The position numbers and the translations under genes were made by a program. Source: Mytilus trossulus (lineage: Eukaryota). Taken from it: a DNA stretch of 64,000 bases. Below the pieces are notes generated by a model. The model saw nothing but the letters and a program-made list of their open reading frames with translations, searched no databases and was not told the origin of the DNA. The DNA is taken from contig NC_086379.1 of assembly GCF_036588685.1 (NCBI RefSeq), positions 75,950,001 to 76,014,000 of the forward strand, given 5' to 3'. Below are positions 8,182 to 9,519 of the stretch, piece after piece. Within the stretch, counting starts at the first letter, position 1; each line of letters begins with the position of its first letter.

Positions 8182-8751
8182 AACGTTATAAAGTGTGAAA
8201 GATATATATATATTTTATTTGGCAATCGCCAATGGCAGTCAGCAGGGTTAAAGAACATCAGTTGTTCGACCTGTTAGTCAAATGCGTTTTGTTTAAATAT
8301 ACTTTTTCACTTTTTTGGTCTTTTGGAAAATTACGTTGCGTTTCCCGACTTAAATATGAAATTGCAAAATTCCTGGTAGATTCCTTCAGAAAATGCACTA
8401 TTTCAGAGTTACCTCCCCTAAAAATAATTTAAAAACGTTAAAAATCAAGCCAAAATAATCTACACTTGTAAAAAAATATTGATATTTTTTAGTTATAATC
8501 TTATAAATTTGTTCTTTTAAATGCATATTCACATTATTCATTATTTATCTGCATTCATGAATCAAATTTTGCCAACTTGATGGAAAATCTTTACCTTAGA
8601 TTCTCTGTTTTTTACTATCCAAGGTCAACTTGCCAAGGTGGAGAAAGATATCCATGCCACCTTAAATGAATGTTTTCATTCTAGTTGAGATTTTAGTCTA
8701 CCCTGTTTTTAACACACGCAATAAACATATGTTGTCCTTACATCAATGTAT

Positions 8752-8883
8752 CAAGGCAAGGACGTATATATATTAAAAGACCTTAAAATGTATTTATACG
8801 TCCTTGATCAAGAATAAGACTATATATACAGCCTGTAACACATCCTTGATTTTATCAAGGATTTGTATAGTTACAAATCCTTG
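8752..8883. mobile_element. Cluster of three CAAGGA..TCCTTG micro-foldback elements
   Basis: 8856-8883 (28 bp) has a perfect TSD ATTTTAT. 8757-8806 (50 bp) has TSD ATCAAGG/ATCAAGA. An older outer copy spans 8752-8848. Confidence 0.7.
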
Positions 8884-9083
8884 ATTTTATTAAATATTAT
8901 TTGTTTCAATATCGGATCATTTGTGATAGCAAGTCAAATGATTATGTACTTCGATTCCCTTAATTTAATGATGCGTTTATTTTAGAATAATCTATTCGAT
9001 CTACTTCTTCATACTTTATATTTGTGCTTAGATAGGTACATTGGCTGTTCAGTACAACATAATTGAGGATACTGTCAACAAAT

Positions 9084-9353
9084 ATGGCTACCAAATTTAG
9101 ACAGTTGGCTGGTTCTATGAAAAAAACGTTTACAGCTCGCAATGTAAACTCGCAAATTATTCCAAAAAGAACTATAATATACACCGAGACGGGAGGCATA
9201 TTAGCTGCTCCAAAGATACACCCATTTGGCTTTATTCCAGTGTTAATGACATTTTTTCCTTTCTTGTATGCTGGGGCCACAATAGGGAAAGAATTTGCTG
9301 CTTGGATGGAAGAAAATGAAATTTTCGTGCCAGATGATGATGATGATGACTAA
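9084..9353 (+). CDS. SMDT1: Essential MCU regulator EMRE (single-pass mitochondrial inner membrane protein with Asp-rich tail), 89 aa
   Basis: MATKFRQLAG...TIIYTETGGILAAPKIHPFGFIPVLMTFFPFLYAGATIGKEFAAWMEENEIFVPDDDDDD*. It has a basic targeting presequence, a transmembrane helix with PFLY.GxxxG, and the hallmark IFVP-D6 tail. An in-frame TAA lies upstream of the ATG. Acceptor at about 9031; 3'UTR intron 9366-12705. Confidence 0.95.
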   Translation: MATKFRQLAGSMKKTFTARNVNSQIIPKRTIIYTETGGILAAPKIHPFGFIPVLMTFFPFLYAGATIGKEFAAWMEENEIFVPDDDDDD

Positions 9354-9519
9354 AATTTCAGACAGGTATATGTTCAATATTGTAGATAGAGGCTCAAACA
9401 GGAACTTTGTGCCTCCCTAACCACAAATTATGACCGATCCATTTTGGCATTTATATCACCGCCACGAATGTAGGACAAAAAGTCACAATTCATTTTTTCT
9501 GACTATTTTCTTTGGATAA

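What the first reader, a model, noticed from the sequence alone, without database searches (positions are those of the whole stretch)
8745..8890. Stack of three ultra-small CAAGGA..TCCTTG hairpin elements (one only 28 bp) with 7-bp target duplications
Seen: CAAGGATTTGTA-TAGT-TACAAATCCTTG is flanked by a perfect ATTTTAT duplication. A 50-bp relative is inserted into the left end of a third copy (TSD ATCAAGG/ATCAAGA). All share the first 5-6 bp but have different interiors. Known: CA..TG (CANRG) termini with 7-8-bp TSDs characterise the P superfamily, and Galileo-type members are foldback elements with 7-bp TSDs. Inference: a family of minimal mobile hairpins, much smaller than typical MITEs, repeatedly hitting one site about 150 bp upstream of the EMRE coding exon.
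Basis: partly seen in the sequence, partly recalled or inferred. Interest (0 to 1): 0.7.

Follow-up and report, generated by a model that had tools for sequence, protein, structure and literature searches.

The report
Stacked scars of P-type transposon excision
These three tiny hairpins are real, and at least two are likely not miniature jumping genes but scars left when long relatives of the fruit-fly P element cut themselves out; their kept ends stop at 20 or 19 letters depending on the family, which suggests the enzyme places its inner cut by a sequence signal rather than at the fly's 17 letters.

Summary
Observation largely confirmed; the 'minimal mobile hairpin' reading is not supported. 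The 28-bp hairpin (B) is one of 1,199 short hairpins with the same ends in this genome, mostly with 7-bp duplications and varied middles. Long parents (3.6-10.6 kb, 35-bp TIR) exist; three of ten carry a P-type transposase gene. Hairpin arms copy the parent end and stop at nt 20 (987 exact ends reach 20 nt, 109 reach 22, 61 reach 27), and junctions favour microhomology: the pattern of end-joined donor sites after P-element excision, known in the fly with 17-nt tails. The 50-bp hairpin (A) is from a second family whose arm stops at nt 19; a third family elsewhere stops at 18. In all three the arm ends two letters before an inner GATTGG motif, and the fly cut has a similar context, so the cut is likely motif-placed. 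Two other samples lack exactly B plus one duplication. The third copy (C) is decayed and unassigned. No parent-to-scar change at one site was seen. The scan noted such scars before on other DNA and in this genome; new here are the parents and the cut depths.

The parts
8745..8751 (.). Left target-site copy of C (decayed; 5 of 7 like the right copy)
8752..8848 (.). Element C, likely the oldest scar: own letters 8752-8756 and 8814-8848 (40 bp), interrupted by A; family not assigned
   Evidence: exact 16-nt right end unique in genome; no significant fit to family A or B
8750..8756 (.). Left target-site copy of A (last 2 nt of C's left flank plus first 5 nt of C)
8757..8806 (.). Element A, 50 bp: likely excision scar of a second P-type family with two unlike ends; decayed arms plus filler
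   Evidence: (119 loci)
8807..8813 (.). Right target-site copy of A (6 of 7)
8849..8855 (.). Shared 7-mer: right target copy of C and left target copy of B
8856..8883 (.). Element B, 28 bp: 18 nt of one parent end and 12 nt of the other overlapping by a 2-nt microhomology; likely the youngest scar; absent in other samples
   Evidence: (18 exact copies)
8884..8890 (.). Right target-site copy of B (7 of 7)
9084..9353 (+). EMRE/SMDT1-like coding frame (neighbour, not part of the stack)
   Evidence: (PF10161, E 3.5e-21)

Best explanation
B and A are likely donor-site scars of two long P-superfamily transposons that inserted here one after another and later cut themselves out, and C is probably an older scar of the same kind. 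Steps: (1) a long element inserts and duplicates 7 bp (shown for parents and for B by empty sites); (2) its transposase cuts one strand at the tip and the other strand inside the TIR, leaving the outer TIR as a 3' tail on each host end (established for the fly P element at 17 nt; inferred here at 20 nt for family B, 19 for family A, 18 for a third family); (3) end joining trims and joins the two tails, often at 1-4 nt of microhomology or with filler, leaving a 24-50 bp hairpin between the two target copies (inferred from junctions); (4) the scar is predicted to be immobile, since two 20-nt staggered cuts would leave no paired middle in anything under 40 bp; (5) stacking likely happens because element ends supply the TTG/CAA flanks that the target motif prefers, so each old insertion leaves good new targets (inferred; fits B, not A). 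The inner cut is likely placed by a motif in the inner TIR (arms end two letters before GATTGG in all three families) and not at a fixed distance from the tip.
For: Family size: 1,199 loci with 10-nt B ends 20-50 bp apart, reversed-pattern control 0; 119 for A. Duplication length: 7 bp perfect in 37 of 50, <=1 mismatch in 46 of 50; 8 bp perfect in 1 of 41. Parents: 10 paired elements of 3.6-4.4 and 10.2-10.6 kb, 35-bp TIR, 7-bp duplication perfect in 7 of 10; 3 of 10 carry the transposase gene, with PF21787 E 1e-22, PF21788 E 4.5e-8, PF21789 E 3.1e-6 and best solved-structure hit fly P transposase 6p5a (E 0.017 and 0.0014). Arm cap: exact ends genome-wide 3,012 at 16 nt, 987 at 20, 109 at 22, 61 at 27; of 96 ends that reach 20 nt, letter 21 is the parent's A in 20 only (C 45, T 26, G 5), 7 of these explained by the other arm; four exact 20+20 joins, none 21+21. 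Filler-free joins explained: 11 of 50 with cap 17, 20 with 19, 25 with 20, 27 with 22 to 35. Microhomology in 16 of 25 joins against 23 of 89 possible, p 0.0007. One-long-arm remnants, as from aborted gap repair: 6 of 35 long ends. Family A: long end beside a P-type transposase (75% identical), arm stops at 19 (6 of 15 at 19, 2 at 20, none longer). Family D: 33 of 35 short ends <=18 nt. Empty alleles: contigs of runs X4 and X5 skip exactly 35 nt. Fly junctions have the same make-up (PMC2895639 Table 1).
Against: No site was seen in both states (full element in one copy, scar in another): the 9 paralogues of one parent site were all empty. Empty alleles and duplications fit a mobile mini-element equally well. 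The cut was not measured; arm caps are read from genome sequence, and 13 of 96 ends match to 21 nt. The two one-long-arm remnants of the G17 subfamily keep 21 nt. C fits neither family better than shuffles (50 and 157 of 300), and the interior of the window's A fits family A only weakly beyond its termini (37 of 300). For family A only one long end was found, without partner end or duplication. The target-regeneration account is weak: 3 of 112 scars abut another family-type end against 0.4 expected, one of the three being this site; a looser test gave 1 of 112; A's target scores only at the 71st-84th percentile. No THAP domain was found in the parent.
Confidence: 0.88

Rival explanations
1. 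Minimal mobile hairpins (micro-MITEs): the 28-50 bp units are themselves moved by the P-type transposase.
For: 18 exact copies of the 28-mer at separate sites; clean 7-bp duplications; presence/absence alleles.
Against: 43 distinct sequences in 50 copies, commonest 3 of 50; the 28-mer is 18 of 1,199 and is a microhomology join expected to recur; arms lack TIR nt 21-35 and all inner sequence; the fly enzyme needs inner TIR contacts and internal binding sites (PMC7776569).
Confidence: 0.06
2. Scars of excision, but with a fly-like fixed 17-nt tail extended by a few letters of repair synthesis from the sister chromatid, or plain internal deletions of parents; the 18/19/20 caps reflect where repair stops.
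For: Long-arm remnants show that templated extension happens (6 of 35 long ends); many arms end at 16-18.
Against: Match to the parent continues at 0.88, 0.77, 0.59, 0.80 for nt 17-20 and falls to 0.28 at nt 21, a cliff and not a tail; exact 20+20 joins occur; the cap shifts with the inner motif across three families.
Confidence: 0.05
3. Local hairpins made by replication slippage or template switching, or chance.
For: AT-rich region (33% GC); C is unique and decayed and could be of this kind.
Against: B is letter for letter the same at 17 other loci; 0 such cases in 60 simulated windows; duplication length fixed at 7.
Confidence: 0.01

Closest known systems
Drosophila melanogaster P element and its end-joined donor sites (PMC7776569: passages and section 8 read; PMC2895639: passages and section 7 with Table 1 read)
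   Same: CA..TG ends, short TIR (35 vs 31 bp), RNase H transposase split by a GTP-binding insertion, scars made of the outer TIR of both ends joined by microhomology, blunt or with filler between the two target copies; the kept tail ends in A and is followed by AGG (fly sequence from the gRNA target in PMC11368186).
   Different: 7-bp not 8-bp duplication; kept arm 20, 19 or 18 nt, not 17; parent about 10.4 kb with a second opposite-strand ORF; no THAP domain found; scars are a natural dispersed repeat (>1,199 loci), not laboratory repair products.
1360 (P superfamily, D. melanogaster; PMC3276498 passages read) and Galileo (search listing only)
   Same: 7-bp target duplication (1360: 274 of 279 sites); 1360 target motif GTTNAAC resembles the R-T-W-W-W-A-Y profile here.
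   Different: No long foldback arms in these parents; no comparison of transposases with 1360 or Galileo was made.
MITEs of the P superfamily (e.g. BuT5, about 1 kb; abstract start only)
   Same: Non-coding, TIR-bounded, many copies. The 3.6-4.4 kb transposase-less parents found here are non-autonomous elements of this general kind.
   Different: The hairpins keep only part of the TIR, have no common interior and are predicted to be immobile.

Membership tests
P superfamily (parent of B) | CA..TG terminal inverted repeats | tested here: met
   35-bp TIR on 10 paired elements
P superfamily (parent of B) | 7- or 8-bp target duplication | tested here: met
   7 of 10 perfect, 9 of 10 within 1 mismatch; 9 of 9 empty paralogues of one site hold a single copy
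P superfamily (parent of B) | [quoted passage not shown] | tested here: met
   PF21787, PF21788, PF21789 above cut-off, in order, over two exons with an in-frame GT-AG intron
P superfamily (parent of B) | Catalytic D230, D303, E531 and GTP-contact residues of the fly enzyme | tested here: met
   Counted by me on the printed alignments to 6p5a: D303, E531, D528, F443, D444, N447 identical; D230 aligns only in a non-significant stretch; residue list
P superfamily (parent of B) | N-terminal THAP domain | tested here: not met
   No Pfam THAP hit at E<=0.1 in the long ORF; no THAP-like pattern in six frames of four parents; a split or diverged domain is not excluded
P-element excision footprint | Outer TIR of both ends kept between two target copies, arms capped at the cut depth | tested here: met
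   B; A
P-element excision footprint | Varied junctions with microhomology, blunt joins and fillers | tested here: met
   43 distinct of 50; microhomology 16 of 25, p 0.0007
P-element excision footprint | 17-nt tail | tested here: not met
   cap at 20 (B), 19 (A), 18 (D)
P-element excision footprint | Same site seen with the full element and with the scar | tested here: inconclusive
   One parent site searched: 9 paralogues, all empty; contigs of 8 runs at this site showed no full element
P-element excision footprint | Staggered cleavage measured with enzyme | not testable with these tools
   needs in vitro mapping
MITE | Uniform length and interior across copies | tested here: not met
   20 lengths from 24 to 46 bp and 43 sequences in 50 copies
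MITE | Complete TIR of the autonomous partner | tested here: not met
   at most about 20 of 35 nt kept
Galileo-type foldback element | Long, internally repetitive TIRs | tested here: not met
   parent arms diverge at nt 36

The most novel reading that the evidence does not exclude
P-type transposases set their inner cut by sequence, not by a 17-nt ruler: three mollusc families cut 20, 19 and 18 nt inside the tip, always after an A two letters before a GATTGG motif, and the fly cut sits in a like context. Thousands of natural scars then give the cut depth of any P family from a genome alone and record more than a thousand germ-line excision and repair events.
Probability: 0.6. Interest if true: 0.65.

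Novelty: new variant of a known kind. Interest (0 to 1): 0.5.

Why it matters
[quoted passage not shown] Natural scars matched to their parents predict family-specific cut depths and a rule for placing the cut that can be tested with one enzyme. They also warn against annotating 25-50 bp hairpins with target duplications as tiny mobile elements, and give a large natural sample of germ-line end-joining junctions in a mollusc. No effect on EMRE is shown.

Tried and rejected
Family for C: exact 16-nt right end found only here; no convincing look-alike in fetched loci; alignment to B and A scars no better than shuffles. Parent of A through its first end: 30 of 87 hits read, none long; the pattern held a letter at position 20 that the parent lacks, so it could not find it; the long end came later through a transposase search. 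Second long end of family A: not found. Full element and scar at one site: flanks of 10 parents against fetched loci gave one empty paralogue; genome search with one flank gave 9 empty paralogues. First stacking test, by a third copy of the duplication: 1 of 112, not informative. The 'cap 16' row is a script error and was ignored; the 'abut' list was too loose and was redone. Second parent ORF: only sub-threshold C2H2 hits and no Atlas hit at 0.9 or above. Literature: nine searches listed no paper on natural P-type scar families or on cut depths other than 17 nt; only listings were seen for most hits, the library lacks most subscription papers and Repbase, and the two primary papers on the fly cut (PMC316450, PMC6948148) were not held, so novelty of the motif rule is not secure. 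No supplements were opened.

Full report
What is there. The three units are as described: B at 8856-8883 with a perfect 7-bp duplication, A at 8757-8806 with 6 of 7, and C at 8752-8848, interrupted by A after its fifth letter and sharing one 7-mer with B; C's flanks match at 5 of 7. Two hairpins with arms of 10 or more and a duplication within one mismatch occur in the window, against none in 60 simulated windows. The EMRE-like frame (PF10161) starts 194 bp downstream; candidate splice acceptors lie 142-146 bp downstream. The genome is 1.3 Gb and likely a mollusc: a run labelled mollusc metagenome holds 201 nt of the site with 3 differences.

The hairpins are dispersed families. B occurs exactly 18 times. 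1,199 loci have its 10-nt ends within 50 bp and 119 have A's, with reversed-pattern controls of 0. In the first 50 of the 1,199 B-type loci (contig C1, all fetched), 37 have a perfect 7-bp duplication and 46 are within one mismatch; they show 20 lengths from 24 to 46 bp and 43 distinct sequences. In a set of 41 (47 extracted, 6 duplicates dropped; biased to the 28-mer) other duplication lengths were perfect in at most 1. For A, 6 of 15 are perfect and 12 of 15 within one mismatch. The target profile from 66 perfect sites of 85 is TTR, then R-T-W-W-W-A-Y, then YAA.

The parents. Two unpaired ends shared sequence beyond nt 20; that longer end occurs 61 times and gave 10 paired elements of 3.6-4.4 kb and 10.2-10.6 kb with a 35-bp TIR and 7-bp duplications (7 of 10 perfect, 9 of 10 within one mismatch). 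Three of the ten carry a two-exon transposase gene, one of them with a stop. It hits the three P-type domains PF21787, PF21788 and PF21789 above cut-off; its best solved relative is the fly P transposase (E 0.017 and 0.0014), with D303, E531, D528, F443, D444 and N447 matched by my count on the alignments. No THAP domain was found. Nine of nine paralogues of one parent site are empty with a single target copy.

Arms stop at nt 20. Exact ends genome-wide number 3,012 at 16 nt, 987 at 20, 109 at 22 and 61 at 27 (position 17 was left free among T, A, G). In the first 100 of the 3,012 ends, the share that goes on matching the parent is 0.88, 0.77, 0.59 and 0.80 at nt 17-20 and 0.28 at nt 21. Among 96 of the first 100 of the 987 ends, letter 21 is C 45, T 26, A 20, G 5, the parent having A; 76 stop at 20, 13 at 21 and 7 later; four loci are exact 20+20 joins and none is 21+21. 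Sixteen of those 25 have 1-4 nt of microhomology against 23 of 89 possible products (p 0.0007). B itself is 18 + 12 nt with a 2-nt overlap, so its recurrence needs no mobility. Of 20 fetched ends that reach 22 but not 27 nt, most were short scars, several of them the same scar copied inside a host repeat, and two were mutated long ends. Six of 35 long ends read close within 150 bp as one long arm plus one short arm of 20 nt (three), 21 nt (two) or decayed (one), as expected from partial gap repair followed by joining.

This is the anatomy of fly P donor sites. The fly enzyme makes a 17-nt staggered cut (PMC7776569) and the 17-nt tails left on the chromosome are joined by microhomology, bluntly or with fillers, never keeping more than 17 nt per side in the table read (PMC2895639 Table 1). 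I wrote this reading down, before looking at earlier notes, which agree and supplied the second paper.

Three families, three depths, one motif. A search with the transposase found several more P-type families; ten were fetched with 10 kb each side. One has a long end identical to A's first end, downstream of a 75%-identical transposase and of a homologue of the parent's second ORF; its partner end was not found. A-type scars match that end for 19 nt: 6 of 15 at 19, 2 at 20, none longer; by eye in the 50 listed of 119 loci, 23 arms reach 19 and the next letter is T 18, A 4, C 1, none continuing as the parent for two letters. A third family (D, not in the window) has a 13-kb parent with a perfect 7-bp duplication, and 33 of its 35 short ends stop at or before 18. 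The motif GATTGG begins at nt 23, 22 and 21 in the long ends of B, A and D, two letters after each cap. In the fly the 17-nt tail is followed by AGG and then TGG (gRNA target in PMC11368186; one passage read). I infer that the inner nick is placed from the inner TIR, which the fly enzyme binds with its helix-turn-helix domain, while the looped single strand, partly disordered in the structure, absorbs length differences. This is inference from three families, two of them with small samples.

The site in other samples. Contigs from runs X4 and X5 (one study) skip exactly 35 nt, B plus one duplication, with 125 and 197 nt on the shorter side. In X1 (another study) contigs end at 8855 and resume at 8877, as a present/absent branch would give (inference). 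X2 and X3 carry another allele that skips 8833-8872 and has 7 extra letters somewhere upstream. A is covered without a joint in X1-X5 and X7, and in part in X6. No contig spanning a B-filled or full-element allele was listed. With duplications matching at 5, 6 and 7 of 7, the likely order is C, A, B; the 35-nt skip could also be a deletion between the 14-nt direct repeats, which gives the same letters.

Why a stack. Element ends provide TTG and CAA next to each target copy. For 66 scars the mean target score rises from 3.2 before insertion to 4.6 and 4.8 for the two copies after it, and B's target, made by C's right end, ranks at the 99.97th percentile of the window (the profile includes this site). 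Three of 112 scars abut another family-type end, 0.4 expected, one being this site. A's target does not fit this account. So repeated use of the site is shown by the nesting; its cause is only partly explained.

Verdict. Real feature; scars of P-type excision, about 0.88. The scar type is known from the fly and was noted before in this scan, also in this genome. The parents, the counts and the family-specific caps tied to an inner motif were not found in nine literature searches, but the two primary papers on the fly cut were not held. New variant of a known kind; interest 0.5.

Noticed in passing
L128:859-2097 (parent on C12); homologue near L328: The 10.4-kb parents carry a second, opposite-strand ORF of 413 aa near one end with a weak C2H2 zinc finger; a homologue lies by the family A end. 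It might stand in for the missing THAP domain (speculation).
   Followed up: partly
L125/L126 (G000:C5:9026899-9037405): One parent has no target duplication but is flanked by a 97%-identical inverted duplication of at least 300 bp, as a transposase-driven rearrangement would give.
   Followed up: no
L014, L017, L068, L072, L079, L084, L142, L164, L171, L180: Further CA..TG hairpin families with 7-bp duplications; parents found only for the CAGAGACA family.
   Followed up: partly
L191, L193, L202-L204; L192, L195, L196, L200: Some scars ride inside other repeats and were copied with them (same flanks at several loci), so locus counts overstate independent events somewhat.
   Followed up: no
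L060 (about 9430-9500), L146, L033: Other stacks: a B-type and an A-like scar side by side, a B scar sharing a target copy with a CAGAGACA scar, and a B scar inside another B scar.
   Followed up: partly
window 8400-8640: High-copy repeat just upstream of the stack (depth); a 14-nt tandem duplication at about 8614-8639 is probably missing in other samples (inferred from gap counts).
   Followed up: no
L341-L344: A distant P-like family (27% identity, 798-aa frame, four copies) lies in 7.8-8.1 kb elements with long inverted repeats and, in one copy, an 8-bp duplication: a foldback-type P element.
   Followed up: no
L325/L326 (G000:C14): A 9.9-kb element of the G17 subfamily with a 913-aa open frame, a perfect 7-bp duplication and one end truncated after 15 nt.
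   Followed up: no
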